NCBI GenBank assembly: GCA_001768555.1
Contig: MEOD01000027.1
Span: 1-26,551, forward strand
Reading direction: 5' to 3'
DNA length: 26,551 nucleotides
From: Bacteroidetes bacterium GWF2_29_10
Lineage (GTDB): Bacteria > Bacteroidota > Bacteroidia > Bacteroidales > GWE2-29-8
The notes below the pieces were generated by a model. The model saw only the letters and a program-made list of their open reading frames with translations, ran no database searches and was not told where the DNA came from. The stretch's first letter is position 1. Every line of letters begins with the position of its first letter. Position numbers and translations under genes: made by a program. Shown in pieces: positions 12,678 to 26,551 of the stretch.

Positions 12678-15515
12678 ATGAAGAAATATCTACAATTTTG
12701 TGTACTAAATGTAATAATTCTGGTGTTTTCTATAAATGTTAATGCTCAATTAATTTATGACTTTAATGCTGACACTAATGCATTAGTACAAAAATTAATG
12801 AGTAATGCTTGTGTTACGTTTAGTAATGCTAAATATAAAGGAGCAAAAGGAGCAAAAGCTATTATAGTAGGTGGCACAAATCCAATGGGAATAAATAGTG
12901 GAATAGTATTATCTACAGGGAATGCTACTGGAGCTGATGCAACTCCTCCATATCCTCAGACTTATAGTATAAACAATAATATGCCAGGAGACGCAGATCT
13001 TGATGTGTTAGCTAGTCCAAATGTTACTTATGATGCATTTGTCCTTGAATTTGATTTTGTACCTTTAGCGGACAGTATATTTTTTAAATATTTATTTGGT
13101 TCGGAGGAATATCATGATGGATTTGATGGTTCTACAGCTTTTGATCTTTTCGCATTCTTTATAAGTGGTCCTGGAATAACAGGATTAAAAAATGTAGCAG
13201 AAATACCAGGAACATCAATTGAGGTAGGGCGAGGAACCATTAACAGAACCGTAAATACTCAATATTTTCATGATAATAATATGCGAACACAAAATGCTTA
13301 TAGAGGTTGGACATCAGTATTTCGTTCGGGAATTAAATTACAGATAGGTCAAACATACCATGCAAAACTTGTTATTGCAGATGTGAGTGATTATTCGATT
13401 GATTCAGGAGTACTTATAGAAACAATAGAATGTCCTCCTCCAGCTCCCTTGCCACCAGTATTTACAGTAAGCACATCATCATCAAGTAATCCAAATACAC
13501 CACAAAATTCATTCTATGAAGGATGCGAAAATATTATAATAAAAGTTAAAGCAAACAAAAAGTTAACAGCAGCAACAACGGTATCAATAGCCTTGAGTGG
13601 CACTGCAACAAATGGAAGTGATTATTCGGCAAATGCAACTTCTGTAACTATTCCTATTGGGAGTGATTCTGCTATTTTTACATTAACAATACTAAATGAT
13701 AATTCAACAGAAGCAGATGAAACAATTAATGTTGATTTTAATCCTTCATCATTAAGTATTCCGCCGATAATAGGATTAATAATAAAGGATGTTACACCTA
13801 TTCAAATAGATTTAACTTCGGATTATACTATATGCCAAGGCAGTACTATAAATATAAGTCCTTCAATCAGTGGAGGGCGTCCAGATTATACATATGTATG
13901 GGAAAATGGGAAAACAACTGAAAGTATTTCAGAAAGTCCCAATATAGAAACAACTTATAAATTAACGGTTACAGATGCTTGTAACAATACTAATACAGCA
14001 CAAACTGTTGTAAATATAGAAATTGGGTCTGCTGAAGCTGGCGACGATCAAAGTATATGCTTTGGGAAATCAGCAACATTAACATCTAATCCTGCAAGCT
14101 CTTACATATGGAGCAATGGAGGCATAACACAATCAATAACAGTAAGTCCAAATCAAACAACAAAATATTATTTATCGGCTACTTCTAATTGTATGGCTGT
14201 TGATAGTGTTATTGTTACTGTTTATCCAATAATGCCAGTAAATATTATTACATCTAAAAATACAATATGTTTAGGAATTGAAGCAAACATGTCATCAAAT
14301 GCAACTGCAAATACATATTTTTGGTCGTCTATACCAAATGATACATCCTTAACTAACCAAAATACAAAAAGCTCGGTTATTGCAAAACCAACAATAAGTA
14401 CTATCTACAGTCTTATGATAACAGATTTTAATGGGTGTTCAAATACGACAAGCATAAAGATAAATATAGATAATGGTCCTAGTGCTTCATTTAGATTTTC
14501 GGCACCAAAAGGATGTGTTTCATCTCCAATAGACATAACTAGTAACACAACTGGTAATTACATATACTTATGGAATTTTGGCTATGGCAGGTTAATTTCG
14601 GGAAACAATGGAGCATCTAATAAGGTTGCATGGGATTCATTAGGGTTTATGAAAGTATCTTTGCAGATAAAGTCAGAGAATGGATGTCTTGGAGATATTA
14701 TTACAGATTCTATTGAAATATTTGATATTCCGATGGTCGATTTTTATGCTATTGATACAGCGGGTTGTCCTCCGTTAGTTGTTTTGTTTAATAATGATTC
14801 ATTAAACCAATATCCAGATGCAGAATATTATTGGGAATTTGGAGATAAAGGAACATCTTCGGACAAAACACCTGTGCATTTATATAAAAATTCAGGCAAA
14901 TTCTCAGTAAGTCTAAAAATAACAAATGCGGGTTGTAGTAATTCGGAAACAAAAAACAATATCATAAATGTTTACCCTGTTCCTAAATCAGAATTTGTTG
15001 TAAAGCCAGAAGAAACATCTATATTTTATCCAGATGTAGTTTTTTATGATGTTACAAAAAATGCGGACTCCACCACTTGGTATTTATTATGGAATGATTC
15101 TACTTTTGGGAACACCCAAAAATTTGAATATGAATTTCCAGATACTGGTGTACAACAATTTTATTTAATAGCAATAAATAGTTTTGGATGTATTGATTCT
15201 GGATTAGGAGAAGTCCTAATTAAAGAAGATTTTACTCTTTACCGTCCAAAATGTTTTACACCCAATGAAGATGGATTAAATGATGTATTTGACATAAAAG
15301 GAATTGGGATAATTGAATTTAAGCTCACAATATATAATAGATGGGGTGAAATTATATATTACTCTGAAGATCTTAATGAAAAATGGAATGGTAAATTAAA
15401 AAATACAGGAAAACTAGTTCAAACAGGTATTTATCCTTATAGAATAGAATTTAAAAATAGTTTGTTAAAACGTAGCACAATATTTGGTCATGTTATGGTT
15501 TTATATAAAAAGTAA
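12678..15515 (+). CDS. T9SS-secreted multidomain surface protein/adhesin (choice-of-anchor L-like N-domain, Calx-beta, 3 Ig-like repeats, 2 PKD, T9SS type-B C-terminal domain)
   Basis: 945 aa with a signal peptide. Calx-beta-like block (aa ~285-355, G..DY...L.F..GE....I.V). Three tandem ~70-aa Cys-containing repeats (aa 377-598). Two PKD signatures (WNFGYG..., YYWEFGDKGTSSDKTPVHLY). C-terminal CFTPNEDGLNDVF...YNRWGE motif of the gliding-motility/T9SS type-B sorting domain. Confidence 0.8.
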   Translation: MKKYLQFCVLNVIILVFSINVNAQLIYDFNADTNALVQKLMSNACVTFSNAKYKGAKGAKAIIVGGTNPMGINSGIVLSTGNATGADATPPYPQTYSINNNMPGDADLDVLASPNVTYDAFVLEFDFVPLADSIFFKYLFGSEEYHDGFDGSTAFDLFAFFISGPGITGLKNVAEIPGTSIEVGRGTINRTVNTQYFHDNNMRTQNAYRGWTSVFRSGIKLQIGQTYHAKLVIADVSDYSIDSGVLIETIECPPPAPLPPVFTVSTSSSSNPNTPQNSFYEGCENIIIKVKANKKLTAATTVSIALSGTATNGSDYSANATSVTIPIGSDSAIFTLTILNDNSTEADETINVDFNPSSLSIPPIIGLIIKDVTPIQIDLTSDYTICQGSTINISPSISGGRPDYTYVWENGKTTESISESPNIETTYKLTVTDACNNTNTAQTVVNIEIGSAEAGDDQSICFGKSATLTSNPASSYIWSNGGITQSITVSPNQTTKYYLSATSNCMAVDSVIVTVYPIMPVNIITSKNTICLGIEANMSSNATANTYFWSSIPNDTSLTNQNTKSSVIAKPTISTIYSLMITDFNGCSNTTSIKINIDNGPSASFRFSAPKGCVSSPIDITSNTTGNYIYLWNFGYGRLISGNNGASNKVAWDSLGFMKVSLQIKSENGCLGDIITDSIEIFDIPMVDFYAIDTAGCPPLVVLFNNDSLNQYPDAEYYWEFGDKGTSSDKTPVHLYKNSGKFSVSLKITNAGCSNSETKNNIINVYPVPKSEFVVKPEETSIFYPDVVFYDVTKNADSTTWYLLWNDSTFGNTQKFEYEFPDTGVQQFYLIAINSFGCIDSGLGEVLIKEDFTLYRPKCFTPNEDGLNDVFDIKGIGIIEFKLTIYNRWGEIIYYSEDLNEKWNGKLKNTGKLVQTGIYPYRIEFKNSLLKRSTIFGHVMVLYKK
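13806..14471 (+). repeat. Three tandem intragenic ~210-bp repeats encoding Ig-like/SprB-like modules inside the adhesin gene
   Basis: The repeat pattern C.G......S....Y.W.NG......V.P..TT.Y.L..TD..C...D.V.V.I recurs three times, at aa 377-448, 449-518 and 519-598. Confidence 0.6.
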
Positions 15516-15519
15516 AGTT

Positions 15520-15990
15520 ATGATAAAAATTAAATTTCACATAGGAATAATAATTTTGTTTATTACAACATTTTCTTTAGCACAAAAGGCTCCAACACCA
15601 GAATTGAACTTGCAAATTGTAAAAATTATAAAGAGTAATATTAATAAAACTATCGACAGAGGAGAATGTTGGGATTTGGCAAATTTAGTTCTCTCTGAAA
15701 CTAATGCAAAATGGGACCATCAATTTGGATTTGGAAGAGAAATAAAGTACTCCATAGATAGTATTTATGCTGGCGATATTATTCAGTTTACTAATGCAAA
15801 GATACAAATGGCAGATGGAGTTGTTTGGCGTTTTGGGCAACATACTGCTATAATTTATGAAATAGATAAAAATAAAAAAATAAAAATAGCACACCAAAAC
15901 GTGAATAATGTTCGCAAAGTTATAATAAGTGATTTTGAGCCAGAAGGATTAATTGAGGGCAAACTTAAAATTTATAGACCTATAAAATAA
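15520..15990 (+). CDS. Small secreted protein, possibly a papain-like (CHAP/NlpC-P60 superfamily) hydrolase
   Basis: 157 aa from the ATG at 15520. The upstream ATG at 15484 would overlap the adhesin stop. Signal peptide MIKIKFHIGIIILFITTFSLAQ. A conserved-looking Cys (GECWDL) and a downstream His in a hydrophobic strand (QHTAIIYEI), consistent with a Cys-His papain-like dyad. The assignment is weak. Confidence 0.4.
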   Translation: MIKIKFHIGIIILFITTFSLAQKAPTPELNLQIVKIIKSNINKTIDRGECWDLANLVLSETNAKWDHQFGFGREIKYSIDSIYAGDIIQFTNAKIQMADGVVWRFGQHTAIIYEIDKNKKIKIAHQNVNNVRKVIISDFEPEGLIEGKLKIYRPIK

Positions 15991-16113
15991 TTTATTAAGT
16001 AAACAACAATAAATGCCCTTTTCAAAATCAGAAACTGACCCAAATCATTTATAGAAAGAACTTGAAATGCTGTAATGACATAATATGAATTGTTTTAATA
16101 ATAATACTTGTTC

Positions 16114-17811
16114 TTAAAGTGTTATATCTTCATTTGCTTTTTTTTTTGCATCTAATATTTGCTTCCTATCAATAGTTCTAGGTATTTCTTTATTAAGAGC
16201 TATATTATAATTTTTAATTGCATTAATTTTGTCATTTTTTAATCTATAATACTCTCCAATAACATAATAAGTATAATAATAATTAGGATTTAAGTTTCGA
16301 TAATAATTTATCTCCTTATCAGATATATTCATTACATTATCGTTTGACATGTAATACTTAAGCATTTTTGTTTTTATTTTATATTCTTTATATTTTTTAA
16401 ATTCTGGTGATTTCAAAAAAGCATCTTCCTTTATCGTTAAGGATGAATCGTATAAATCATCTAAAACATTTACATGTTTGCCAAATATATCATTAAGATT
16501 GTATGATATGTAAGCACCTAATTGATATGGATTTGATGATACCCAAATTTGCAATTTTTCTGGTTTAAAAATTACAGAGTGATGTGCAATAAGTTGGTTT
16601 ATTGATTTTTCATTTCCCATACCAATATCTTTATTATTTTTTCCTTTTTGATCTCTTAATATTAAGGCAAATGACTCTACATTGTGTTTTTTGCATTTAT
16701 TTAACAATTCTGCTGTTCTTTCCCAACGATATAAAGAAGCGCCTTCTTTTAAACTTTGAATGTTTATCTCTGTGTTTTTTAATTTTTCACCCTGATAATG
16801 ATTAGTTAGTATTAATTGATTAGAACCTGTTTCAAATAATCCTATATTATCTGTTGATTTTTCTATAACAACCGTTTTTTTATCTACAGAAGAACTAATT
16901 AAAAAAGATTCAGAAACAAAAATTTGCATTTTATTAGCTATAGCATAAGCTTCATCTATATTCGAAGCATATTGCAGTATCATTCTTGCTAGAATTGAAA
17001 CAGGCGTTCCTGTAGAAGTTGGGATTTTTGATTTTGCAGCATTTAAAGTCACGACAAGTCCTTTATCATTCATTCCAGATATAACTCCAATCATGCCTCC
17101 CCATGTAATGGTACAAAATTTATGTCCACTATCAGGCTCATAAAACGCTATTATTTTATTTTCCGCGAAGTCATCACCTGAAGAGAAATCCATATTTTTG
17201 CCAATTAATATTGTACTGTCTTCAGATTTATCTCCACTAACTTCAAAAGCCGTACACCCCACTAAATTCATATTTTGCAAAGTATGCCCAATATCATGAG
17301 CAGCATGATAATTAAGCATTCTATGATAAGCAGGACCTATGTAATTAAATTTATCAGAGGCATGTAATGAAACACCATATATTTCTTTTTGAAATTCCAG
17401 AGGTATATGTTCATCTATATTTCTATTAAACCACAATATAAAATACTTTAAAACATTTAAATACATTTTGGAAGGAACCATTTCGTTTATATTCTCTAAA
17501 AATATAGCTTCTTGTTGTTCTATTAATTCTGAGGATAGTATTCCATTTTTCACACCTAATTCGAAAGCACTACCTTTAAGGTACATTTCCCATAAACCAT
17601 ATTTATTTTTTTTCAGCCAACTATCTTTACATATGTATACATTGGGGGAAATCTCTTTTCTATAAATATTTTTAGTTATTTTATAATCAACTAAAGGAGG
17701 GTGAACTTTTATAGATAATACAAATACAGAAACAATAATACCTAAGATTACCAATATTATAATCAGTAGTTTAAATAATTTGCTTTTGTAAATAGGCTTA
17801 TTGTTTTTCAT
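16114..17811 (-). CDS. Membrane-anchored C45-family peptidase / Ntn-hydrolase acyltransferase-like protein with a C-terminal TPR-like region
   Basis: 565 aa. N-terminal TM helix. A Gly-Cys autoprocessing-like site (LVG|CTAFEV; Cys186 at nt 17254-17256), as in acyl-CoA:6-APA acyltransferase/C45. C-terminal Tyr/Asn-rich helical repeats (YYTYYVIGEYYRLKNDKINAIKNYNIAL) resembling TPR. It is the last gene of the leftward operon. Confidence 0.55.
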   Translation of the reverse strand: MKNNKPIYKSKLFKLLIIILVILGIIVSVFVLSIKVHPPLVDYKITKNIYRKEISPNVYICKDSWLKKNKYGLWEMYLKGSAFELGVKNGILSSELIEQQEAIFLENINEMVPSKMYLNVLKYFILWFNRNIDEHIPLEFQKEIYGVSLHASDKFNYIGPAYHRMLNYHAAHDIGHTLQNMNLVGCTAFEVSGDKSEDSTILIGKNMDFSSGDDFAENKIIAFYEPDSGHKFCTITWGGMIGVISGMNDKGLVVTLNAAKSKIPTSTGTPVSILARMILQYASNIDEAYAIANKMQIFVSESFLISSSVDKKTVVIEKSTDNIGLFETGSNQLILTNHYQGEKLKNTEINIQSLKEGASLYRWERTAELLNKCKKHNVESFALILRDQKGKNNKDIGMGNEKSINQLIAHHSVIFKPEKLQIWVSSNPYQLGAYISYNLNDIFGKHVNVLDDLYDSSLTIKEDAFLKSPEFKKYKEYKIKTKMLKYYMSNDNVMNISDKEINYYRNLNPNYYYTYYVIGEYYRLKNDKINAIKNYNIALNKEIPRTIDRKQILDAKKKANEDITL

Positions 17812-17836
17812 TTTTTTTATTTTGCTATATTTAACC

Positions 17837-19345
17837 TTATTTTATTTCTCTAATATCTTTAATCAGCTTATTAATATCAATGAATGCAGAGCATGATATT
17901 ATAGCACTTATTGTTACGCCTAATATCCCGTGTAAGCCAACATTCTGTCCTGTAAGATATAAATTTGGAATTTTTGTATATGTTGAAATAAAAGTACTAA
18001 TAGGATCATTGCAATCTTTTATTATTCCATACATAGAGCCTTCAGGTACTCCAGTGTAATCTCTATATGTTAATGGTGTTGAGCTATAAAATGTTTCAAT
18101 AGAATCTTCAATGTTGTTAAATTTTTTGCTAACTAGCTTAATTAATTTATTGCTTCGATCTTTTTTAAATACATTGTAATCCTCATCTCTTTTACCTGTT
18201 ATAGAATCTTTCCATTTTTTAACATCTTCAAATTTCATAGAAGAAATAACAGTAATGCTTTTTGCAAACTCTAAATTGTTCTCATCAGGACAAGTGTATA
18301 GCATATATCCCGTAGGCCAATCTGATTGTTTATAATTATTTGCGGTCCATACATCTTTAGATTTTGAATAATAAATATTTGAGTTTATATGTTTAATTTT
18401 TTTCTTTTTTAAAATAATATATAAAACAAAAGACCCTATTGAGTTTTCTAAATTACTAATTCTTTGTATATAAACTTTCCTTAATTTACCTTCATCCTTT
18501 ATAAGCTGATTTGTTTGTGCAGGATGAATGTTTGAAATAAATGAATTACCAAATACTATTGACTTATCTTTAGTTTCTAGAGATAAAACTCTATTATTAT
18601 TAAAATTTATTTGCAAAACTTCCTTATTTGTGAAAATAACTCCATTGTTTTCCTCAATTACAGATTTAAGAGCATATACTAAATTATCACTGCCATTTTT
18701 AAATTTAAAAGCACTTTGAATAAAAAAAAGATTAATTAAAGCATGAATATGAAAAGGCGTTTTATCAGGAATGCCAGCATATAAACCATTTGTTGCAACA
18801 AGCAATGTTCTTAATTCTGTATTTTCTGTTATACTGTTTATTACTTTACTAACACTTTCTGTCAACATGTCTATTTTCATAATATGTTCATGTTGATTGG
18901 GTAGATTTTTTAAAGCTAAAATGTTTGTGGCATCCCATGCTTGCTGGAGTTTATTGATGTAATTTAATATATTATCTTTTTCTTCAGGAAAGTAAGCAAA
19001 CAATTTCTCTCTGAAATTATTTATTCCCATAGAATAACAATACTCTTTTTCTTCAATAAATATTTTTTCGAAACAATCTTCATCCAACCTAACTAGTTCT
19101 AATCTATCAAGTATTCCAATATATTTGAATATTTTATTTAGTATTTGCCCATTGTCCAAACTCCCTACATAATGCATACCAGTGTTAAACTTACAACCCT
19201 TTCTTTTAAATGTCTGCAAATTGCCCCCTAATTGAGAATGTTTTTCTAAAATGCATACAGAATAACCATTTTTGCTAAGAATAGCACCACATAATAAACC
19301 TCCTAAACCACTACCAATTATCACTACATCATATTTTTCAGACAT
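17837..19345 (-). CDS. FAD-dependent oxidoreductase, phytoene-desaturase (CrtI)-like family, copy B
   Basis: 502 aa. N-terminal dinucleotide-binding motif VVIIGSGLGGLLCGAIL...LEK...GG. Conserved C-terminal block LYLTGQNVGLHGILG. Paralogous (~45-50% identity by eye) to the adjacent upstream gene. Confidence 0.75.
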   Translation of the reverse strand: MSEKYDVVIIGSGLGGLLCGAILSKNGYSVCILEKHSQLGGNLQTFKRKGCKFNTGMHYVGSLDNGQILNKIFKYIGILDRLELVRLDEDCFEKIFIEEKEYCYSMGINNFREKLFAYFPEEKDNILNYINKLQQAWDATNILALKNLPNQHEHIMKIDMLTESVSKVINSITENTELRTLLVATNGLYAGIPDKTPFHIHALINLFFIQSAFKFKNGSDNLVYALKSVIEENNGVIFTNKEVLQINFNNNRVLSLETKDKSIVFGNSFISNIHPAQTNQLIKDEGKLRKVYIQRISNLENSIGSFVLYIILKKKKIKHINSNIYYSKSKDVWTANNYKQSDWPTGYMLYTCPDENNLEFAKSITVISSMKFEDVKKWKDSITGKRDEDYNVFKKDRSNKLIKLVSKKFNNIEDSIETFYSSTPLTYRDYTGVPEGSMYGIIKDCNDPISTFISTYTKIPNLYLTGQNVGLHGILGVTISAIISCSAFIDINKLIKDIREIK

Positions 19346-19346
19346 A

Positions 19347-20840
19347 TTAAGCTTTTTTTATTTTGTTAAACAAATAATCCCTACCTATTATTTCAGAACA
19401 AGTAAGAGCAGCTCCTATTGATACGCCCAATATACCATGCATATTCAAATTTTGGCCAGTAAAATATAAATTTTCAATGCGTGATCGAGGTGTAATTATA
19501 GTTGATAGCAAATTATCTTGTTTTTTTAATATTCCATAAGCAGAACCATTTGGAGTCGCTGTATAATCTCTATAAGTAAGAGGTGTTGATGTGTAATAGC
19601 ATTCTATTTTTTCTCTTAATCTTGGAAATTTCACTTCTATAAAATCTATAAGTTTTTCAGCTTTCCTTTGCTTAAACTCTAAATATTCATCACTTCTATT
19701 TTCGGTATAAGTGTCTTCCCATTTTTTCACCTCATTATATTTCATATACGTTATAGCAATAATTCCATTTGCCCATATATCTGAATTTGAATTAGACGGG
19801 GTGTATAACATGTAGTGTTCCGGCCAATATGCTTCATTATAGTTTGTAGTCCATGTATTTACTTTTGAAAAATGGTGGTGATTATAATTAAGATAAGGAA
19901 ATTGTTTTTTTTTCAAAACTATGTATAAAGAAAACATTCCTATAGTATTTTCAAGAGAACTTATTCTTGACTTAAATGCCATTTTGTTTATATTTCTATC
20001 AACTATATCTAGTGTTACTTTAGGATGTATATTTGAAATTATTTTTTTTGCATAAATTCTCTCCCCGTCTTCAGTATCAACATAATCAACTTTTTTATCA
20101 CCACCAAAAGACACGACCTTTTTAGAAAGTCTAATAATCCCTCCATTTTTATATATTTCATCTGCAATTCTTGCTGCTAATTGAGATCCTCCATCAATAA
20201 TGCGCCATGCGCTTTTTATAAATGTATAATTTATTAAAGAATGAATATACAATGGAGTTTCAGCTTGAACTCCAGCATAAAGCGAATTCATACCTCCAAG
20301 TATATTATTAAGTTTATTATTTGAAGTTATTGAAGATAAGTAATTATATGCATTAGTTTGTAACTTATTTAAACCAATTGCGGATAAATCCATAGAATCA
20401 TTTAATGTATAAAAAGGAAACGAATTACATACATGTTTCATATCCTTTATATATATTTTAAGATTTTCTTTTTCTTTAGGAAAATATTCTGCTAACGATT
20501 CTATAAAATTATTATAACCTTGAGCAAATGGGTATTCATTGTTATCTTCCGAAAAACTAATACGTTCAAAACCTTCTATATCCAAGCGCTTCAACTTAAG
20601 CTTATCTATTATGTTAAAATACTTAAAATATCTATTTAAAACCTCCCCTTCCCCTAAACCTTCTGTATAATTTAACCCAGTATTAAATATTGTTTTATTT
20701 TTTGCAAAAGACTGAATACACCCTCCAATCATTTTATTTTTTTCTAACAAGCAAACTTTCAACCCCTCCCTACTCAATATATTTCCACACAATAGTCCAC
20801 CAAGACCTGCACCAACTATAACAATGTCATATTTTTCCAT
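19347..20840 (-). CDS. FAD-dependent oxidoreductase, phytoene-desaturase (CrtI)-like family, copy A
   Basis: Start chosen at M22 (MEKYDIVIVGAGLGG; 20840). The ORF is open to 20903 but that would overlap the upstream gene by 77 nt. GxGxxG motif. C-terminal LYFTGQNLNMHGILG block. Tandem paralogue of 17837-19345. Confidence 0.75.
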   Translation of the reverse strand: MEKYDIVIVGAGLGGLLCGNILSREGLKVCLLEKNKMIGGCIQSFAKNKTIFNTGLNYTEGLGEGEVLNRYFKYFNIIDKLKLKRLDIEGFERISFSEDNNEYPFAQGYNNFIESLAEYFPKEKENLKIYIKDMKHVCNSFPFYTLNDSMDLSAIGLNKLQTNAYNYLSSITSNNKLNNILGGMNSLYAGVQAETPLYIHSLINYTFIKSAWRIIDGGSQLAARIADEIYKNGGIIRLSKKVVSFGGDKKVDYVDTEDGERIYAKKIISNIHPKVTLDIVDRNINKMAFKSRISSLENTIGMFSLYIVLKKKQFPYLNYNHHHFSKVNTWTTNYNEAYWPEHYMLYTPSNSNSDIWANGIIAITYMKYNEVKKWEDTYTENRSDEYLEFKQRKAEKLIDFIEVKFPRLREKIECYYTSTPLTYRDYTATPNGSAYGILKKQDNLLSTIITPRSRIENLYFTGQNLNMHGILGVSIGAALTCSEIIGRDYLFNKIKKA

Positions 20841-23800
20841 AATTTTTCTTTCTAAGTACATATGTAATATTCGACGTGTAATACGAATTGTCAAAAATTT
20901 CACAAATTAATTCATTTGCTTTTGCAAAATCTTGTATCTTTTTACCAGAAATAAACGTCAGTTTACATTTAGTTTTATTAAATTTAAATATTTTTGTTGA
21001 TTGTATTTCTGTTAATTTTGTTCTTTTTGTTCTTTTTTTCAAATCTGCATCAGCATCTCTAATAATAATCATTCCATCGGAAGAAACATTTCTAACACAT
21101 TCAGACAAAACATTTATTTGTACATTTTCTGGCATATAATGCAATACATCATTTAAAATAAACACATCTGCATTAGGTAGCTTACTTTCACTTATATCTA
21201 GGACTTTAAAATTAAGGCAATCGTCTTTAATCGGAATATTGTTTGCAATACTAATTTTCTCTTCATCATAGTCTATACCTGTTACTATTCTGTTTTTAGA
21301 AACCATTCTAAGCATACAAGAAAGAAATCCATAACCACAACCAATATCCACAATATTAGAATTCATAGGGATTATATTATTATAAAATTTATATTGTTTT
21401 TCCATTCTTATTTTCACTCTGAGATACCATTCTAAAACAGGACCTTTATAAATATATTGATGAATCAACTGATGATAATAGAAATCTGGGGTTTCTTTTT
21501 CTAATCGTAGTTTTGCATATTCGCTTCTATAAAATTTCAACACTTTTTTTGTTTGTTCTCGATAAGTAACACCGCATGATGTTTGCATTGGAGTTTCAAC
21601 CTCAAATTTATCAAACACTTTGATAGTTATATGTCCTGATTTTAGAAAAAAATCGGTTTTAGACAAACAGTTATAAGCTCCATGTATCATTATAGGCTGG
21701 ATAGCTATACCTAATTCATGTGCGATATTAAATGCTCCTTGTTGAAATCTGTTAATTTCGCCATCAAAAGTTCTTTTTCCTTCTGGGAAAATTAATATAG
21801 AATATCCATCATTAACTTTTCTTTTTATTTTTTCAATGTCATTATTTAAACCTTTGTATGCTGGATAAAATTCGGCATATCTTATTATAAAGCCATAAAA
21901 AGGATTATTCCAAACCCATTGATTTGTAAATACTATAATTTTAGGATTTAACATTAATAGTAAAACAAGGTCTAAATGAGATTGATGATTAGAAATAATT
22001 ATAGAAGGTTTTGAAAAATCTAATTTTTGCATATCTATATAATCTCGTTTAATTGTAATATTAACATAAACAATAAATTTAGAGAATATATAGATAATAT
22101 AGCTCATAAAATATTTTTTTGACTTTTTTCTTATTGGTGTACAGAAAAGTATAGGCAATAAAGTTGTCATCGTTATAGAACCTAATAAAAATATAAAAAA
22201 TGAACCTATAGATATTATAGAATTAACTAAATTGATAGGTTGAATTCTTTTGTTTTTTCCATTATTTATGATAAAATTAAAAAATAAAGGCAATATCGTA
22301 TATGAAAAAACTAAAGCAGAACTAATACCAATAATTGAGACTATTGCAATTGATTTAAGTGCAGGATGTTCAGCTAATATCAAAACTCCAAATGCTCCTA
22401 TAGTAGTTATAGCAGAAAGAAAGACTGATAATTTATATGAAACAAGGCTAACATTTCCGTATTTATAATTATCTATCAAACCACTCATTATAAATATACT
22501 ATAATCAAGACCTAGTCCAAATATAAAACTTAAAACAATTACATTAAATATATTAAATTCAATATTAAAAAAGCCCATTAATCCCAAAGTCCACAACCAA
22601 CATAATGCTACGGGTATAAAAGTTATTATTGCTATTTCAATTCTTCCAAAAAAGATTAACAATAAACAAAAAACGACTAACATTGATAATAATGATAATT
22701 TATTGAAATTTTCTTTTAGTATATCAAATAATTTATTTACAAAAATTTGTTTATCAAAAACAATAATACCCTCTATATTATTTAGTTTTTTTAGCAATTC
22801 GTTTTTATGCTTTAAATCAACCTTTAGTATAGATGCAACATAGTAAGTATTATTTGTAGAATTAATATAATTACTAAGAAAATTATTTTTAATTAATTCA
22901 AATTCATCAATTGAAACAGTTGAAAAATTTTTATCAAGCAATTTATAAAAATCATTAAAAGCTGATTCCTTAAAATGAAAAAGTTTTCCCTTTTCTGATA
23001 TAGTTTTTTTTAATGTTTTTTTGTTATTTTTATCCCAAAACTTATTCCATTTATCAATCTTCTGTTGCTGCATATAAGCACTCATTATTAAATCTGATGC
23101 AGAAGATACAGCTGTTATTGTCGCATCTGAAATGAGCTTTTGAAATAAAGTCTTTTGTTGTTCACTTTTTCTTATTGCAGAATCGAGTATTGTATCCTGA
23201 GCTATTACATATACAGCGCTATTAGCTACGGAACTTATGCTTTTTAAATTATTTTCTGCTGTAGAAAGTTTTTTTGTAATGTAATTAAGAGTTCCAATAT
23301 CACTATTAAATTTCAAATTTTGTGAACTAAAAATAAAAAAAACAGATAAAATCATTATTGATATTATTAAAATTTTATTTTTATCATAATTTAATCCTAT
23401 AATTTTTTCCAAATATTTTGTTTTAAAATTAGGAGACTTTATATTAGCAACTTCTTTTAGAAAAAAAGGCATTATTACTAAAACAGATAATGAAGTAAAT
23501 GTAATTGCAAAAGCAGCAAACATACTTAACTGTTTAATAGCTTCTGAATGTATAACAAATAAGCACATGAAAGTAGCAGATGTAGTCATACTACTAAGAA
23601 GAACTGGAAGAGCGATCTTCTTTATTGTATTTTTTACCGAGTTACTTTCTCTATAATGAGTAAAAGCATGTAATGGGTAATCAACAGAGATACCTATTAG
23701 TATAGCTCCTATTCCTAAAGATATTATAGAAATAGCACCATTAACAATAGACAACATTGCTAATGATAAAAGAGCTCCTATAGCAACTGGTAAAAATAAT

Positions 23801-24687
23801 AATAAAATTACCTTAAAACGTCTAAAAAACAACCAAAATATTATAGACAAAAATATTATGGATATTGAAACTGTAATTATTATATCCTGCTTTATCTGGG
23901 TTGAGTTTGCTACAGCAACTGCAGTCCCCCCATAATATTCAACATTAATATTAGAAGATGTTTTTATAACATTAATCAGTGCATTATCTAATAATGTAAT
24001 TAACTTACTATTCATCTTTGTATTATTTGATGGATAATATGGTTCGATAAATATTAGCAGATGCTTTTGGTCGTTAGTAAATATACACGAATTGTAAATA
24101 GTAAAGTTTTTGTCAATCTGAAAACTTTGAAGTTTTTTTAGAGCTAAAGGAGTTATACTTAAAGGATCATTGAATATATATTTTTTTGTTGCAATTCCAG
24201 TTGGAGAAATTAATACTTTTAAATTGTTTTCAAGTTTATGTTCTATATATTTATCATTAAGAAGAGATTGAATATGCTCATAATCTTTATCATCTAAATA
24301 TAAAGGTAAATTATTGTATATAAAATCATAAACATCAAGAAATGTCTTTTCATTTATCTTAAACTTAATTTCTTTTATGTATGTAGAATCTTTTGATAAT
24401 TGAGCGACTAAATTATCTGCTACCTCTATTAATTTATCTGGATTATTAGAAATACTATATTTAAATGATATGTTAAATATTATCTGACTGGCAAGTTTTG
24501 AATTGTTAAATGCTAAATTTAATTCATCTATTCTACTATCTTGAGGAACTATTGAGTTAATATTTTCTTCAAAATCTAATCTAAATAGGAAATACACCGA
24601 AACTATTAACAAACATGCAAGCATAATTAAAGAAGCAAGTTTGTGTTTATATAGAAAATTGTTTATACTTATAAAAAAGTTACCCAT
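20827..24687 (-). CDS. Tri-domain fusion protein: MMPL/RND-like exporter + PlsC-type lysophospholipid acyltransferase + class I SAM-dependent methyltransferase
   Basis: 1286 aa. Residues 1-~830 form two periplasmic domains, each followed by a TM bundle (GISVDYPLHAF and GLGLDYSIFI GxxxD-type motifs of MMPL/RND exporters). Residues ~870-1060 are an acyltransferase with the HX4D motif ISNHQSHLD (nt 21969-21995) and FPEGKR block. Residues ~1090-1286 are a methyltransferase with VDIGCGYGFLS (nt ~21320-21350) and an acidic motif II. Confidence 0.7.
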   Translation of the reverse strand: MGNFFISINNFLYKHKLASLIMLACLLIVSVYFLFRLDFEENINSIVPQDSRIDELNLAFNNSKLASQIIFNISFKYSISNNPDKLIEVADNLVAQLSKDSTYIKEIKFKINEKTFLDVYDFIYNNLPLYLDDKDYEHIQSLLNDKYIEHKLENNLKVLISPTGIATKKYIFNDPLSITPLALKKLQSFQIDKNFTIYNSCIFTNDQKHLLIFIEPYYPSNNTKMNSKLITLLDNALINVIKTSSNINVEYYGGTAVAVANSTQIKQDIIITVSISIIFLSIIFWLFFRRFKVILLLFLPVAIGALLSLAMLSIVNGAISIISLGIGAILIGISVDYPLHAFTHYRESNSVKNTIKKIALPVLLSSMTTSATFMCLFVIHSEAIKQLSMFAAFAITFTSLSVLVIMPFFLKEVANIKSPNFKTKYLEKIIGLNYDKNKILIISIMILSVFFIFSSQNLKFNSDIGTLNYITKKLSTAENNLKSISSVANSAVYVIAQDTILDSAIRKSEQQKTLFQKLISDATITAVSSASDLIMSAYMQQQKIDKWNKFWDKNNKKTLKKTISEKGKLFHFKESAFNDFYKLLDKNFSTVSIDEFELIKNNFLSNYINSTNNTYYVASILKVDLKHKNELLKKLNNIEGIIVFDKQIFVNKLFDILKENFNKLSLLSMLVVFCLLLIFFGRIEIAIITFIPVALCWLWTLGLMGFFNIEFNIFNVIVLSFIFGLGLDYSIFIMSGLIDNYKYGNVSLVSYKLSVFLSAITTIGAFGVLILAEHPALKSIAIVSIIGISSALVFSYTILPLFFNFIINNGKNKRIQPINLVNSIISIGSFFIFLLGSITMTTLLPILFCTPIRKKSKKYFMSYIIYIFSKFIVYVNITIKRDYIDMQKLDFSKPSIIISNHQSHLDLVLLLMLNPKIIVFTNQWVWNNPFYGFIIRYAEFYPAYKGLNNDIEKIKRKVNDGYSILIFPEGKRTFDGEINRFQQGAFNIAHELGIAIQPIMIHGAYNCLSKTDFFLKSGHITIKVFDKFEVETPMQTSCGVTYREQTKKVLKFYRSEYAKLRLEKETPDFYYHQLIHQYIYKGPVLEWYLRVKIRMEKQYKFYNNIIPMNSNIVDIGCGYGFLSCMLRMVSKNRIVTGIDYDEEKISIANNIPIKDDCLNFKVLDISESKLPNADVFILNDVLHYMPENVQINVLSECVRNVSSDGMIIIRDADADLKKRTKRTKLTEIQSTKIFKFNKTKCKLTFISGKKIQDFAKANELICEIFDNSYYTSNITYVLRKKNYGKI

Positions 24688-24688
24688 C

Positions 24689-25870
24689 TTATTTTTTTCT
24701 AAATAATTTTAATAATAAAAATGAAAATAAACCAAAAAAAACAGACAACATAAACGCAAAAACAATACTCCCTATAAGATATTGTTTTAAATTAGCCTTA
24801 ACTCCTTCAATGCTTAATTCTACATCTACATTCCAACTCCCATTTTCCAGCACATAACTTCCCGTAATATAACTTAAATAAAGAATAATAGGTAACAATG
24901 GAGGGAAACTAATATTTGCAGCAAGAAAGAAAATAGCCTTATTTAATTTGAAAAAATGTGCTATTATAAAACCAATTATAAGCTGAAATCCCCATATAGG
25001 AACAATACCCATAAATACACCAAATGCTATAGAGGAAGCGATTATATGATTTGAAGTATTAACATCTAATATATCTTCTTTAATTATTTGTTTGAAAGTT
25101 TTTTTTCTGTATACATTAAGTATTTTTTTTGGGCGGTAATAAATTAGAGCCATTGTTACCAAAACAATATTTAATAAGCTTATTCTTAAAAAATCTTTAA
25201 AAGGACGAAAATGTGATATTCTATTTTCTTTTTCAGGGTAATAAACGTCTATAGGTACGCACAAAACATCAATATTTGCCCAAGAAGCTCTAACAATTAT
25301 TTCTAACTCAAATTCATATTTGCCCGAAAAAAACTTTATTGATTTCATTTCTTTTAATGGATATAACCTATATCCTGATTGTGTATCGGGTAATTCAACA
25401 CCAGTTTCTATATTAAACCAAAAATTAGAAAACTTATTTGCAAAATTGCTTTTAGATGAAATATTAGAGTTTTTAAGCGAGCGGGAACCTATGATAATAG
25501 AATTAGAATTACGATCAAGGGCTTCCAAAAAAACGGGTAAATCTTTAGCAAAATGCTGTCCATCAGAATCAATTGTAATAGCATAATTAAAGCCTGCATC
25601 TAATACATTTTTAAAACATGTACGTAAAGCGTATCCTTTTCCTTTATTTATTGGATATGAAATAATATTAATTGTCGAAAACGGTTTAATTATATCTAAA
25701 GTATTATCAGTGCTTCCATCATTAATTATAAAGATATCATCACAATATGGGATTAAATCTTCAATAACTTTTTTTATAAATGTAGCATTATTGTATGTTG
25801 GCATTACAATGCAACACTTTTTTTGCCTAAATATATTTTTACATTGATTTGCGTTATTATTTGAATTCAC
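24689..25870 (-). CDS. GT2-family glycosyltransferase with a C-terminal polytopic membrane domain
   Basis: 393 aa. N-terminal GT-A motifs (CIVMPTYNN, INDGSTDNT, DSDGQH). The C-terminal ~150 aa contain four hydrophobic helices. Overlaps its neighbours by 1-14 nt (operon). Confidence 0.75.
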   Translation of the reverse strand: MNSNNNANQCKNIFRQKKCCIVMPTYNNATFIKKVIEDLIPYCDDIFIINDGSTDNTLDIIKPFSTINIISYPINKGKGYALRTCFKNVLDAGFNYAITIDSDGQHFAKDLPVFLEALDRNSNSIIIGSRSLKNSNISSKSNFANKFSNFWFNIETGVELPDTQSGYRLYPLKEMKSIKFFSGKYEFELEIIVRASWANIDVLCVPIDVYYPEKENRISHFRPFKDFLRISLLNIVLVTMALIYYRPKKILNVYRKKTFKQIIKEDILDVNTSNHIIASSIAFGVFMGIVPIWGFQLIIGFIIAHFFKLNKAIFFLAANISFPPLLPIILYLSYITGSYVLENGSWNVDVELSIEGVKANLKQYLIGSIVFAFMLSVFFGLFSFLLLKLFRKK

Positions 25871-26219
25871 CTTTAAACTTTAGATATTTTATTTCGTCTG
25901 AATATAATAAGCCTGTAACTGATATTCTCCCCGTATCTGTATATTTATAATTAATAATGCTTTCTATTTGAGCTTTTTCAAGCGGATTATGCATTGCTAA
26001 AAATTTAACTTCACTTAATAGCTCTATCATCAAATTTATTTTTAATTCTTTTTTTAATATTTCTTTTATAATTAATATTTGGCAAACACCTGGTGTAATT
26101 GGGATATTAGGAAAATGTCCTTTATATATTAAGTTGTCTTTATTTAGTATAATACTTGCACGTATTTCACTATCTGTTTTGCTTATGATATTATATTTGT
26201 AAAGATCATTAATTAGCAT
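25857..26219 (-). CDS. Hotdog-fold 3-hydroxyacyl-ACP dehydratase-like protein (FabZ/ApeI-ApeP-like)
   Basis: 120 aa. The block GHFPNIPITPGVCQILIIKE matches the FabZ/FabA active-site motif GHFPxxPxxPGV (His in the catalytic position). Small hotdog size. Confidence 0.65.
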   Translation of the reverse strand: MLINDLYKYNIISKTDSEIRASIILNKDNLIYKGHFPNIPITPGVCQILIIKEILKKELKINLMIELLSEVKFLAMHNPLEKAQIESIINYKYTDTGRISVTGLLYSDEIKYLKFKGEFK

Positions 26220-26514
26220 TGTTTTGAACTTTTATTAATTTTAAGTTTATACTTAATCTTATTCTGCTATGGCTTATGTTTATTGAATCCAATAAATCTT
26301 CAGAATTTTTTACAATAGATACATTTATTGTTTTAAAAAAACCAGCTTTCTTATATATTCTGAAAACATCAAAATTCGAACGGTAAAAATAAAAATATTT
26401 ATCCGAAAGATGTATGAATTTTAAAATTTTAAAATCATTTACCTCTTTTATTGAAATCTTATTTGTTTCTATTTTTGACAAATCTTGAACAATGCTTCTA
26501 AAGTCACTTTGCAA
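26209..26514 (-). CDS. Hypothetical protein, first visible gene of the leftward operon; may be N-terminally incomplete or extend upstream
   Basis: 101-aa ORF overlapping the dehydratase start by 11 nt. No family recognised. Only 37 nt remain to the window edge, so the true start is uncertain. Confidence 0.3.
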   Translation of the reverse strand: MQSDFRSIVQDLSKIETNKISIKEVNDFKILKFIHLSDKYFYFYRSNFDVFRIYKKAGFFKTINVSIVKNSEDLLDSINISHSRIRLSINLKLIKVQNNAN

Positions 26515-26551
26515 AATGTTTATTATCTGTTTTTTGTTAAAAAAGTCTTTA

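What the first reader, a model, noticed from the sequence alone, without database searches (positions are those of the whole stretch)
16114..26551. Leftward operon of seven or more genes resembling an aryl-polyene/flexirubin-type lipid-anchoring and export module, in an unusual fused form and without the polyketide core in view
All ORFs from the window edge to 16114 are on the minus strand, with overlaps or gaps of <=25 bp. In order they are a small ORF, a FabZ-like hotdog dehydratase, a GT2 with a membrane tail, an exporter-acyltransferase-methyltransferase fusion, two CrtI-like FAD oxidoreductases and a membrane-anchored C45/Ntn acyltransferase-like protein. In E. coli/Xenorhabdus aryl-polyene and Bacteroidota flexirubin loci, dehydratases, a lysophospholipid acyltransferase, a glycosyl/acyltransferase, an O-methyltransferase and an MMPL exporter are separate genes. 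Those genes are thought to anchor the pigment to a lipid and move it to the outer membrane. Here those functions are condensed, and additional redox (2x FAD) and Ntn-hydrolase enzymes are appended. This could be the tailoring/export half of a flexirubin-like cluster whose KS/ACP genes lie beyond 26551. Alternatively it could be a distinct, uncharacterised pathway for a modified, methylated, glycosylated membrane lipid. The assignment to a named pathway is inference only.
Basis: partly seen in the sequence, partly recalled or inferred. Interest (0 to 1): 0.8.

Follow-up and report, generated by a model that had tools for sequence, protein, structure and literature searches.

The report
Ordinary flexirubin-type pigment export operon
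This gene run is the well-known tailoring and export half of the flexirubin-type (aryl-polyene) pigment gene cluster of Bacteroidota, including its usual three-in-one exporter/acyltransferase/methyltransferase protein, so it is an ordinary new member of a described cluster type, not a new pathway.

Summary

The genes are collinear, one for one, with flxR-flxW of the published Chitinophaga pinensis flexirubin cluster (Schoner 2014, Table S4) and with Fjoh_1076-1084 of Flavobacterium johnsoniae.

[quoted passage not shown] NCBI names it a trifunctional MMPL transporter/lysophospholipid acyltransferase/methyltransferase. It was found in more than 541 GTDB species.
- **The "appended" enzymes are standard.** The FAD oxidoreductase is FlxV and the C45 enzyme is FlxW. 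FlxV is tandemly duplicated here, as in a Marinilabiliales-like clade.
- **The operon extends upstream.** Identical metagenome contigs (Bacteroidetes bacterium GWE2_29_8) show four more genes just past 26551: KS, CLF, polysaccharide deacetylase and LolA2. That gives an 11-gene operon, flxN-flxW.
- **One real peculiarity.** About 48 kb of contiguous sequence holds no ACP, ketoreductase, thioesterase, starter CoA-ligase, ammonia-lyase or DarA/DarB. These must lie elsewhere in the genome or be missing.

Low interest: a new member of a known kind.

The parts
26209..26551 (-). 3' part (114 codons) of a lolB2/flxR-type gene, cut by the window edge. The full gene is 218 aa with a lipoprotein-like N-terminus.
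   Evidence: Frame stays open to the edge. The full gene in L001 7823-8479 scores 83.1 bits against a cutoff of 60 for NCBIfam NF053540 LolB2_flexi. LolB2 = Fjoh_1084 in the flexirubin operon (PMC11885536).
25857..26219 (-). FlxS/ApeI-type hotdog dehydratase (120 aa).
   Evidence: Pfam ApeI-like E 0.005 and FabZ E 1e-3. phmmer to E. coli CFT073 ApeI gives 1e-4. GHFP motif with H35 is invariant in 39 orthologues. Same position as flxS/Fjoh_1081.
24689..25870 (-). FlxT: GT2 glycosyltransferase fused to a DUF2062 membrane domain (393 aa; alternative start 25804 gives 371 aa).
   Evidence: Pfam Glycos_transf_2 7.8e-22 and DUF2062 2.6e-17. phmmer to the ApeJ GT2 domain gives 7e-29. Conserved acidic motifs (D51, D55, D101xD103, E188, E190) in 71 orthologues. 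Adjacent to the fusion gene in 69/75 loci.
22273..24687 (-). FlxU domain 1 (aa 1-~805): MMPL/HAE3-type RND exporter, related to ApeM.
   Evidence: NCBIfam HAE3 6e-32, HpnN 4e-31, Pfam MMPL. phmmer to ApeM gives 7e-23. Hydropathy fits TM1-loop-TM2-6-TM7-loop-TM8-12. Asp-Tyr pairs 'VDY' (TM4) and 'LDY' (TM10) are conserved.
21508..22272 (-). FlxU domain 2 (aa ~806-1060): PlsC-type lysophospholipid acyltransferase, related to ApeD.
   Evidence: Pfam Acyltransferase 1.9e-18. phmmer to ApeD gives 3e-14. The catalytic NHQSHLD (HX4D) and FPEGKRT motifs are conserved in all homologues.
20827..21507 (-). FlxU domain 3 (aa ~1061-1286): class I SAM-dependent methyltransferase.
   Evidence: Pfam Methyltransf_31/12/11/25. 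Motif I DIGCGYG is conserved in all ~1280-aa homologues and degenerate in the 1205-1227-aa Flavobacteriia versions. No detectable similarity to ApeB.
19347..20840 (-). FlxV paralogue 1: CrtI/RetSat-superfamily FAD oxidoreductase. The ORF is open to GTG 20903; the likely start is ATG 20840.
   Evidence: Pfam NAD_binding_8 and Amino_oxidase; NCBIfam CrtD and carotenoid isomerase hits are well below their cutoffs. 41% identical to paralogue 2 and 55-69% to first-copy orthologues in L005, L007, L009, L011, L016 and L029. [quoted passage not shown]
17837..19345 (-). FlxV paralogue 2: CrtI/RetSat-superfamily FAD oxidoreductase (502 aa).
   Evidence: As above. The only full-length PDB sequence match is gamma-carotene desaturase 4rep, E 1e-9. 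The GxGxxG motif and 47 positions are at least 95% conserved in 69 orthologues.
16114..17811 (-). FlxW: membrane-anchored C45 (Ntn, Cys-nucleophile) autoproteolytic acyltransferase/hydrolase with a C-terminal helical repeat domain. Last gene of the operon.
   Evidence: NCBIfam C45_proenzyme 210.6 bits against a cutoff of 85; Pfam AAT 1.1e-23. Cys186 is invariant in 60/60 orthologues. AF2 model pLDDT 87.4; the best PDB fold match is isopenicillin N acyltransferase 2x1c (E 1e-16, TM 0.76), then acid ceramidase and NAAA. TM helix at 16-34. Equivalent to flxW/Fjoh_1076.

Best explanation
The region is the flxR-flxW segment of an 11-gene operon (flxN-flxW). The operon starts about 4 kb beyond the window edge and belongs to the flexirubin-type aryl-polyene gene cluster family of Bacteroidota (MIBiG BGC0000838/839).

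**Shown**
- One-to-one collinearity and homology with the published C. pinensis and F. johnsoniae clusters and with dozens of other Bacteroidota loci.
- Intact catalytic motifs in every enzyme.
- Homology of KS, CLF, DH, GT2, the RND domain and the acyltransferase domain to E. coli ApeO, C, I, J, M and D.

**Inferred, by analogy to the Xenorhabdus and E. coli APE-lipid pathway and to Schoner's proposal**
1. The KS/CLF pair with the hotdog dehydratase extends a polyene acyl chain on an ACP encoded elsewhere.
2. The cytoplasmic PlsC domain of FlxU and the GT2-DUF2062 protein, helped by the polysaccharide deacetylase, attach the acyl chain to a glycerolipid or amino-sugar lipid carrier.
3. The fused methyltransferase methylates the product, most likely the aryl head group.
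4. The CrtI/RetSat-like flavoenzymes adjust the polyene by desaturation, saturation or isomerisation.
5. The RND domain of FlxU extracts the lipid from the inner membrane and passes it to LolA2 and LolB2 for delivery to the outer membrane.
6. The membrane-anchored C45 Cys-Ntn enzyme performs a final acyl transfer or amide/ester cleavage. Schoner et al. proposed that it couples the polyene to the dialkylresorcinol. Its N-in anchor suggests that it acts on the periplasmic side.
For: - **Gene order.** L001 and L087 carry KS-CLF-deacetylase-LolA-LolB-DH-GT2-fusion-FAD-FAD-C45. This matches Table S4 of PMC3992019 (flxN KS, flxO condensing enzyme, flxP deacetylase, flxQ LolA, flxR, flxS dehydratase-like, flxT GT2, flxU, flxV, flxW) and Table S5 (Fjoh_1076-1085).
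- **Curated equivalogs.** NCBIfam LolA2_flexi scores 204 bits against a cutoff of 125, and LolB2_flexi scores 83 against 60. LolA2 and LolB2 were 'always found in loci dedicated to flexirubin-like pigments' (PMC11885536).
- **Related loci.** The same order is seen in L005, L006 and many of 80 GTDB loci, including Chitinophaga, Mucilaginibacter, Niabella, Carboxylicivirga and Marinilabiliaceae. Identities to the Chitinophaga locus L018 are 30-51% over full length.
- **Link to the E. coli ape cluster.** phmmer E-values are 6e-59 (ApeO), 2e-6 (ApeC), 1e-4 (ApeI), 7e-29 (ApeJ), 7e-23 (ApeM) and 3e-14 (ApeD).
- **Catalytic residues.** All are conserved.
- **C45 fold.** It matches isopenicillin N acyltransferase.
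- **Published roles of the Ape counterparts.**
Against: - About 48 kb of contiguous sequence around the operon holds no ACP, ketoreductase, ApeP-type dehydratase, thioesterase, starter CoA-ligase (FlxY), ammonia-lyase (FlxA) or FabH-like DarB. In the nearest relatives, TE-KS-FlxL-ACP lie directly upstream and the ligase directly downstream. The pathway cannot be completed from this locus alone.
- No step of lipid attachment or export has been shown biochemically for any flx cluster. The roles of FlxV, FlxW, FlxP and the methyltransferase domain are inference.
- The methyltransferase domain is not related to ApeB, and LolA2 and LolB2 are not detectably similar to ApeL and ApeN at E<=0.01.
- The organism is an uncultured MAG, so no pigment phenotype is known.
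Confidence: 0.85

Rival explanations
1. A stand-alone pathway. In this organism the 11-gene operon works without dedicated ACP, KR or starter genes. It uses housekeeping AcpP, FabG and acyl-ACPs to make and export a methylated, glycosylated membrane lipid that is not an aryl-polyene pigment.
For: No ACP, KR, TE, ligase, TAL or DarAB in about 48 kb. The operon has its own 490-bp AT-rich upstream region with TAnnTTTG-type motifs. All enzymes keep their catalytic residues, which suggests selection.
Against: Every gene is orthologous to a flexirubin-cluster gene. The closest relatives (L070, L005, L009) have the full cluster with ACP and ligase. Split flexirubin clusters are documented in C. pinensis, which has two loci. 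MAG contigs are short (at most 34 kb), so absence in cis says little about the genome.
Confidence: 0.08
2. A decaying remnant. The upstream TE-KS-FlxL-ACP block and the downstream ligase were lost by rearrangement, and the remaining genes are on the way to pseudogenisation. No product is made.
For: The canonical neighbours are missing, and unrelated genes abut both ends: a TPR protein and UvrD upstream, a T9SS adhesin downstream.
Against: All 11 ORFs are intact and tightly coupled, and all catalytic motifs are retained. The sequence is identical in several independent samples. Divergence from relatives is 45-65% identity with no frameshifts, which is not expected for a neutral remnant.
Confidence: 0.05
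3. An LPS, capsule or exopolysaccharide-lipid pathway unrelated to polyenes, built from GT2, deacetylase, acyltransferase and exporter.
For: The GT2, polysaccharide deacetylase and PlsC domains are generic envelope-biogenesis domains. A lipid A acyltransferase gene and a Kdo transferase gene lie 5-30 kb away.
Against: KS/CLF and an ApeI-type dehydratase lie in the same operon. The LolA2_flexi and LolB2_flexi equivalogs score above their cutoffs. Collinearity with MIBiG flexirubin clusters is strict. The GT2 hits to named LPS/EPS equivalogs are all far below their cutoffs.
Confidence: 0.02

Closest known systems
Chitinophaga pinensis flexirubin cluster flxA-flxY (Cpin_1853-1877; MIBiG BGC0000839; Schoner et al. 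2014)
   Same: [quoted passage not shown] The Chitinophaga locus L018 is 30-51% identical over full lengths.
   Different: FlxV is tandemly duplicated here. flxA-flxM (TAL, SDR, KSs, ACPs, TE, MT, halogenase), flxX (holo-ACP synthase) and flxY (4-coumarate-CoA ligase) are not adjacent and are absent from about 48 kb. The presence of darA/darB is unknown.
Flavobacterium johnsoniae flexirubin cluster (Fjoh_1075-1110; MIBiG BGC0000838) and the F. macacae locus L006
   Same: Same order: C45 (Fjoh_1076), reductase (1077), exporter plus acyltransferase fusion (1078), GT (1079), DH (1081), LolB2 (1084) and LolA2 (1085). A plasmid with Fjoh_1078-1089 complemented a pigment-negative mutant.
   Different: The Flavobacteriia fusion proteins (1205-1227 aa) have a degenerate methyltransferase domain (motif I lost). 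They carry extra OMP beta-barrel genes between lolB2 and the DH gene, have a single FlxV, and have the CoA ligase adjacent.
Proteobacterial aryl-polyene (ape) cluster of E. coli CFT073 / Xenorhabdus doucetiae (ApeA-R) and its APE-lipid product
   Same: Homologous KS/CLF (ApeO/ApeC), hotdog DH (ApeI), GT2 (ApeJ N-terminal domain), RND exporter (ApeM) and lysophospholipid acyltransferase (ApeD). Both use LolA/LolB-like carriers. The proposed logic is the same: acylate a glycerolipid or sugar anchor, export by RND plus Lol-like proteins to the outer membrane.
   Different: In ape loci the exporter, acyltransferase and methyltransferase are separate genes. ApeB is an unrelated O-MT-type enzyme. 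ApeN is DUF3261. There is no polysaccharide deacetylase, no CrtI-like flavoenzyme and no C45 enzyme. ApeG (COG4648) is absent here.
Isopenicillin N acyltransferase (C45, PDB 2x1c) and lipid amidases of the Ntn fold (acid ceramidase, NAAA)
   Same: FlxW shares the alpha-beta-beta-alpha Ntn fold, the autoproteolytic Gly-Cys site (Cys186) and a disordered pre-cleavage linker.
   Different: Only about 19% identity. FlxW has an N-terminal membrane anchor and a roughly 100-aa C-terminal helical-repeat domain. Its substrate is unknown.

Membership tests
Flexirubin-type (flx) biosynthetic gene cluster of Bacteroidota | Collinear block: KS-CLF-deacetylase-LolA-LolB-DH-GT2-FlxU-FlxV-FlxW | tested here: met
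   the same order as Cpin_1866-1875 and Fjoh_1076-1085, and as many GTDB loci.
Flexirubin-type (flx) biosynthetic gene cluster of Bacteroidota | Dedicated LolA2/LolB2 pair (NCBIfam equivalogs NF053544 and NF053540) | tested here: met
   204 bits against a cutoff of 125, and 83.1 bits against 60. The window fragment alone scores 22.8 bits, below the cutoff, because it is truncated.
Flexirubin-type (flx) biosynthetic gene cluster of Bacteroidota | FlxU-type fusion of exporter, acyltransferase and methyltransferase | tested here: met
   All three domains are present with intact motifs. 37-39% identity over the full length to Chitinophaga FlxU orthologues.
Flexirubin-type (flx) biosynthetic gene cluster of Bacteroidota | Complete type II PKS set in the cluster (ACP, ketoreductase, second dehydratase, thioesterase, further KSs) | tested here: not met
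   Only KS, CLF and one DH are present. tblastn at E<=1 with ACP, KR, TE, ApeP and FlxL queries finds nothing in window+L001+L087. The Pfam lists of all flanking genes are negative. The rest of the genome could not be searched.
Flexirubin-type (flx) biosynthetic gene cluster of Bacteroidota | Starter-unit genes: tyrosine ammonia-lyase FlxA and 4-coumarate-CoA ligase FlxY | tested here: not met
   No AMP-binding or lyase gene in about 48 kb. In related loci the ligase follows C45 in 37/64 cases. Elsewhere in the genome: not testable.
Flexirubin-type (flx) biosynthetic gene cluster of Bacteroidota | DarA/DarB dialkylresorcinol genes. These define flexirubin proper as against other aryl-polyene lipids. 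| not testable with these tools
   No FabH-like or DarA-like gene appears in the Pfam lists for the 48 kb. In C. pinensis they lie in a separate locus, and the whole MAG could not be searched.
Flexirubin-type (flx) biosynthetic gene cluster of Bacteroidota | Pigment with a reversible KOH colour shift | not testable with these tools
   Uncultured groundwater MAG.
Proteobacterial ape (aryl polyene) cluster | ApeO/C KS-CLF, ApeI DH, ApeJ GT2, ApeM RND and ApeD acyltransferase homologues | tested here: met
   phmmer against the CFT073 proteins gives 6e-59, 2e-6, 1e-4, 7e-29, 7e-23 and 3e-14.
Proteobacterial ape (aryl polyene) cluster | ApeE/F ACPs, ApeQ KR, ApeP DH, ApeH ligase, ApeK TE, ApeG, ApeN (DUF3261) and ApeB MT as separate genes | tested here: not met
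   No hits. LolB2 has no DUF3261. The MT domain is fused and unrelated to ApeB. The locus is therefore related to the ape subtype but not a member of it.
C45 autoproteolytic Ntn acyltransferase/hydrolase | Family HMM above cutoff, conserved Gly-Cys self-cleavage nucleophile and Ntn fold | tested here: met
   NF040521 scores 210.6 bits against 85. Cys186 is present in 60/60 orthologues. Foldseek top hit is 2x1c, E 1e-16.
CrtI/CrtD phytoene-desaturase family proper | Score above the family or equivalog cutoffs | tested here: not met
   crtI_fam scores 79 and 68 bits against a cutoff of 238. CrtD scores 135 and 116 against 550. [quoted passage not shown]
RND/MMPL (HAE3) transporters | 12-TM topology with two large periplasmic loops and Asp-Tyr proton-relay pairs in TM4 and TM10 | tested here: met
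   Hydropathy profile, with conserved VDY at position 335 and LDY at position 727. The HAE3 and HpnN HMM hits are partial and below the equivalog cutoffs.

The most novel reading that the evidence does not exclude
In this deep-branching, low-GC groundwater lineage the 'attachment and export' half of the flexirubin-type cluster (flxN-flxW) has become an autonomous 11-gene operon, separated from all starter, ACP, KR and resorcinol genes. It may make a different outer-membrane polyene lipid or fatty-acyl glycolipid with housekeeping FAS components. The membrane-anchored, probably periplasm-facing C45 enzyme would carry out the last transacylation outside the cytoplasm. That would show the module to be a separable, general lipid-to-outer-membrane delivery system and not a pigment-specific accessory.
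Probability: 0.1. Interest if true: 0.45.

Novelty: new member of a known kind. Interest (0 to 1): 0.15.

Why it matters
It matters little as a discovery. The cluster type, including the trifunctional fusion, the FAD reductase and the C45 enzyme, has been in the literature since 2009-2014, is in MIBiG, and is detected by standard tools.

Three points have modest value:
1. The functions of FlxP, FlxT, FlxU, FlxV and FlxW are still unproven in any organism. The strict conservation of the GT2-FlxU-FlxV-FlxW block seen here marks it as the core to test in F. johnsoniae: 69/75 (GT2), 65/73 (FlxV) and 54/68 (FlxW) of the loci with enough flanking sequence.
2. The methyltransferase domain is intact in the Chitinophagia/Bacteroidia-type proteins and degenerate in the Flavobacteriia-type proteins. 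This could be correlated with ring methylation of the pigments.
3. This MAG shows that the distal half can be physically separated from the rest of the pathway.

Tried and rejected
1. **Walking out of the window.** I used the look-up of encoding contigs on the fusion protein, UvrD and PstS. This extended the view to about 48 kb. It found KS/CLF/PDA/LolA2 but no ACP, KR, TE, ligase, TAL or DarAB. The contigs end there, at 34 kb or less.
2. **Relaxed tblastn for the missing genes.** Queries were E. coli Ape proteins and relatives' TE, FlxL, ACP, ligase, Fer4 and rSAM proteins, at E<=1 against window, L001 and L087. Only noise came back.
3. **The source genome in GTDB.** The MAG GCA_001769085.1 did not appear among the top genome-contig hits, so the whole genome could not be interrogated.
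4. **PDB sequence searches.** C45 gave nothing. The FAD enzyme gave only a distant full-length hit to gamma-carotene desaturase. This does not discriminate desaturase, isomerase and saturase chemistry.
5. **Promoter and terminator scan at the operon's 3' end.** The sigma-70/terminator scan was at chance level and is not suited to Bacteroidota promoters.
6. **tRNA and Rfam scans of the window.** Nothing found.
7. **Literature check of flexirubin phenotype in Carboxylicivirga-type relatives.** Nothing usable in the held papers. McBride 2009 is not held.
8. **LPS/capsule reading.** Rejected because of the KS/CLF/DH genes, the LolA2/LolB2 equivalogs and strict flx collinearity.

Full report
**1. 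Observation**

The window is AT-rich (about 27% GC). From 16114 to the right edge, every ORF of 90 aa or more lies on the minus strand.

| Coordinates | Product | Main evidence |
|---|---|---|
| 16114-17811 | C45 Ntn enzyme | NF040521 210.6 bits against a cutoff of 85 |
| 17837-19345 | CrtI-superfamily FAD enzyme | NAD_binding_8, Amino_oxidase |
| 19347-20903 | CrtI-superfamily FAD enzyme | same |
| 20827-24687 | 1286-aa fusion protein | MMPL/HAE3 RND, PlsC acyltransferase, class I SAM methyltransferase |
| 24689-25870 | GT2 plus DUF2062 | Pfam hits |
| 25857-26219 | 120-aa hotdog | weak ApeI-like/FabZ hits |
| 26209-26551 | open frame running off the window | see below |

Three corrections apply.
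- The 'small ORF' is the C-terminal half of a 218-aa LolB2-type gene.
- The first FAD gene probably starts at ATG 20840, giving 497 aa as in its orthologues.
- The operon continues beyond the window.

**2. Source and the missing upstream part**

The fusion protein is found, residue for residue, on several groundwater metagenome contigs. It also appears in NCBI as a hypothetical protein of 'Bacteroidetes bacterium GWE2_29_8'.

Locus L001 shows what lies directly beyond 26551. Four more co-directional genes precede LolB2:
- a FabF-like KS (398 aa);
- a KS-like chain-length factor (348 aa);
- a polysaccharide deacetylase;
- a LolA protein.

The LolA and LolB proteins score above the curated cutoffs of the NCBIfam equivalogs 'flexirubin biosynthesis/transport protein LolA2' (204 bits against 125) and 'LolB2' (83 against 60).

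Upstream of the KS there is a 490-bp AT-rich spacer with Bacteroidota-type TAnnTTTG motifs. Then come unrelated genes: a small ORF, a TPR protein, UvrD, a lipid A acyltransferase, Impact, PhoH, a TonB receptor and a two-component system.

Downstream of the C45 gene the window holds a T9SS adhesin, DUF6268, Band 7, MqnA, an epimerase, a GT2, DUF4199 and pstSCAB-phoU. Further left lie a hypothetical gene and a Kdo transferase. The operon is therefore 11 genes long and stands alone in about 48 kb.

**3. What it is**

Schoner et al. 2014 (PMC3992019), Table S4, lists the C. pinensis flexirubin cluster:

| Gene | Annotation |
|---|---|
| flxN | KS |
| flxO | condensing enzyme |
| flxP | polysaccharide deacetylase |
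| flxQ | LolA |
| flxR | hypothetical |
| flxS | dehydratase-like |
| flxT | GT2 |
[quoted passage not shown] | flxW | 'peptidase C45 ... Ntn_hydrolase' |
| flxX | holo-ACP synthase |
| flxY | CoA ligase |

Table S5 gives the same order for F. johnsoniae: Fjoh_1075 ligase, 1076 C45, 1077 reductase, 1078 exporter plus acyltransferase, 1079 GT and 1081 DH. De Smet et al. 2025 identify Fjoh_1084 and Fjoh_1085 as LolB2 and LolA2.

The window operon is thus gene-for-gene flxN-flxW. A plasmid carrying Fjoh_1078-1089 restored pigment to a flexirubin-negative mutant.

**4. How common it is**

The fusion protein has more than 100 full-length 90%-identity clusters in the protein database. One is named 'trifunctional MMPL family transporter/lysophospholipid acyltransferase/class I ...'.

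The best 80 cover residues 1 to about 1280. They include Chitinophaga (among them C. pinensis), Mucilaginibacter, Niabella, Terrimonas, Ferruginibacter, Carboxylicivirga and many Marinilabiliaceae and Bacteroidales.

Counts among those loci that have enough flanking sequence:

| Feature | Count |
|---|---|
| GT2-DUF2062 directly before the fusion gene | 69/75 |
| FlxV-type FAD gene after it | 65/73 |
| Two FAD genes after it | 13/73 |
| C45 gene | 54/68 |
| FlxY-type ligase | 37/64 |
| KS-CLF-PDA-LolA2-LolB2-DH block upstream | about 29/62 |

The two FAD genes here are 41% identical paralogues. Each has its own orthologues in L005, L007, L009, L011, L012, L015, L016 and L029, so this is an old tandem duplication within a Marinilabiliales-like clade.

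The Flavobacteriia versions of the fusion protein (1205-1227 aa) have lost methyltransferase motif I.

**5. Relation to proteobacterial aryl-polyene clusters**

I fetched the E. coli CFT073 ape locus (L090) and compared proteins with phmmer.

| Protein here | E. coli counterpart | E-value |
|---|---|---|
| KS | ApeO | 6e-59 |
| CLF | ApeC | 2e-6 |
| DH | ApeI | 1e-4 |
| GT2 | ApeJ | 7e-29 |
| FlxU N-terminal domain | ApeM | 7e-23 |
| FlxU middle domain | ApeD | 3e-14 |

The methyltransferase domain does not match ApeB. LolA2 and LolB2 are too diverged to match ApeL and ApeN.

It is not true for Bacteroidota.

**6. Integrity and mechanism**

All catalytic signatures are present and conserved in orthologue alignments:
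- KS: Cys160, His293, His328.
- CLF: no active-site Cys.
- Hotdog: His35.
- Deacetylase: Asp74, Asp75, His125, His129.
- GT2: conserved acidic motifs.
- RND domain: TM4 and TM10 Asp-Tyr pairs.
- PlsC domain: HX4D and FPEGxR.
- Methyltransferase: DIGCGYG.
- FAD enzymes: GxGxxG.
- C45: Cys186, present in 60/60 orthologues.

An AlphaFold model of the C45 protein was built from a 28-sequence alignment (pLDDT 87.4, pTM 0.88). It shows an N-terminal TM helix, an Ntn core with a low-confidence linker just before Cys186, and a C-terminal helical-repeat domain. Its best PDB fold matches are isopenicillin N acyltransferase (E 1e-16), then acid ceramidase, NAAA and bile-salt hydrolases.

The Lys-rich N-terminal flank of the anchor suggests an N-in orientation, which would place the catalytic domain on the periplasmic side. 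This is an inference from the positive-inside rule.

The SAM-dependent methyltransferase domain must be cytoplasmic. The hydrophobic stretch at 830-848 after TM12 is therefore best read as the interfacial helix motif of PlsC-type enzymes and not as a 13th span. This too is inference.

The working model follows the Xenorhabdus APE-lipid pathway. There, ApeD acylates a lysophosphatidylglycerol, ApeJ adds GalNAc and the aryl polyene, and ApeM, ApeL and ApeN export the product. It also follows Schoner's proposal that FlxP-U export the pigment and that FlxW couples the polyene to the dialkylresorcinol. The steps are:
1. Polyene acyl chain built on an ACP.
2. Attachment to a glycerolipid or amino-sugar lipid by the FlxU acyltransferase domain, FlxT and FlxP.
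3. Methylation by the FlxU methyltransferase domain.
4. Polyene adjustment by FlxV.
5. Extraction by the FlxU RND domain.
6. Transfer through LolA2 and LolB2 to the outer membrane.
7. A FlxW-catalysed transacylation or cleavage as the late step.

Only the homologies and motif conservation are shown. The chemistry is inferred.

**7. What is unusual**

The nearest relatives carry TE-KS-FlxL-ACP directly upstream and the ligase downstream. These are L070 (Breznakibacter, 56% identity in FlxU), L005 and L009. Here those genes, and every other core or starter gene, are absent from about 48 kb.

C. pinensis also keeps its pathway in two loci, and the MAG's contigs are short. A split cluster is therefore the most economical reading, but I could not search the rest of the genome. 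Whether the product is a true flexirubin (which needs DarA and DarB) or another aryl-polyene lipid stays open.

**8. Verdict**

The pathway family is right and KS genes do lie beyond the edge. The claims of an unusual fusion and of appended extra enzymes are wrong, because both are canonical and published features.

This is a new member of a known cluster family, of low interest. A small residual possibility remains that the distal half works as an autonomous module in this lineage.

Noticed in passing
window 585-5049 (+): A complete high-affinity phosphate uptake operon, pstS-pstC-pstA-pstB-phoU. The PstC-like protein (403 aa) carries an extra N-terminal stretch with a weak PBP_like_2 hit.
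   Followed up: partly
window 5118-5372 (-): An 84-aa Ala/Glu-rich ORF with a lipoprotein-type signal (…FVAC), lying in an otherwise non-coding 1-kb gap (5050-6114). No Pfam, tRNA or Rfam hit in this gap.
   Followed up: partly
window 8636-9451 (-): An MqnA-type (VitK2_biosynth) gene. It suggests that menaquinone is made by the futalosine route in this Bacteroidota MAG.
   Followed up: no
window 11671-15990 (+): DUF6268 protein, a 945-aa adhesin-like protein (Calx-beta, PKD, CHU_C type IX secretion signal) and an overlapping 168-aa AIM3/BBC1 cysteine-proteinase-fold protein. These converge on the end of the flx operon. The 123-bp convergent spacer (15991-16113) has no recognisable intrinsic terminator.
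   Followed up: partly
L001 4060-4112 (about 100 nt upstream of the KS start; outside the window): An A-run, a 12-bp hairpin and a T-run (aaaaaagaaaaagtaagactagacttactttctcttttttttt). It looks like a bidirectional terminator, placed between the divergent upstream ORF and the flx operon promoter region.
   Followed up: no
L087 13258-14139 (+), directly after uvrD and about 5 kb upstream of the KS gene: A 293-aa lipid A biosynthesis acyltransferase (Lip_A_acyltrans) gene. The C. pinensis cluster has a gene with the same annotation (flxE), so this could be a stray cluster member or simply the housekeeping LpxL. Not resolved.
   Followed up: no
L005 18519-21987; L009 and L011 at similar positions: In some Marinilabiliales-like relatives a membrane 4Fe-4S ferredoxin-type protein sits between the C45 gene and the CoA-ligase gene. 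In L005 a B12-binding radical SAM gene follows. These accessory genes are absent from the published flexirubin clusters and from the window.
   Followed up: no
A1 alignment; P0107 and P0112 (Aureibaculum, Flavobacterium): The Flavobacteriia FlxU orthologues keep a C-terminal extension that aligns to the methyltransferase domain but has lost SAM-binding motif I. C. pinensis has both FlxJ and the FlxU methyltransferase domain, and its flexirubin carries a methionine-derived ring methyl. F. johnsoniae has no FlxJ homologue in Table S4. This is a possible genotype-chemotype link worth testing.
   Followed up: partly
P0121 (UvrD/AddA-like helicase, L087 10001-13243): Its best non-self database hit is only 38% identical. 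The flx proteins top out at about 56-69% identity. The source MAG is therefore a deep-branching, poorly sampled Bacteroidota lineage.
   Followed up: no
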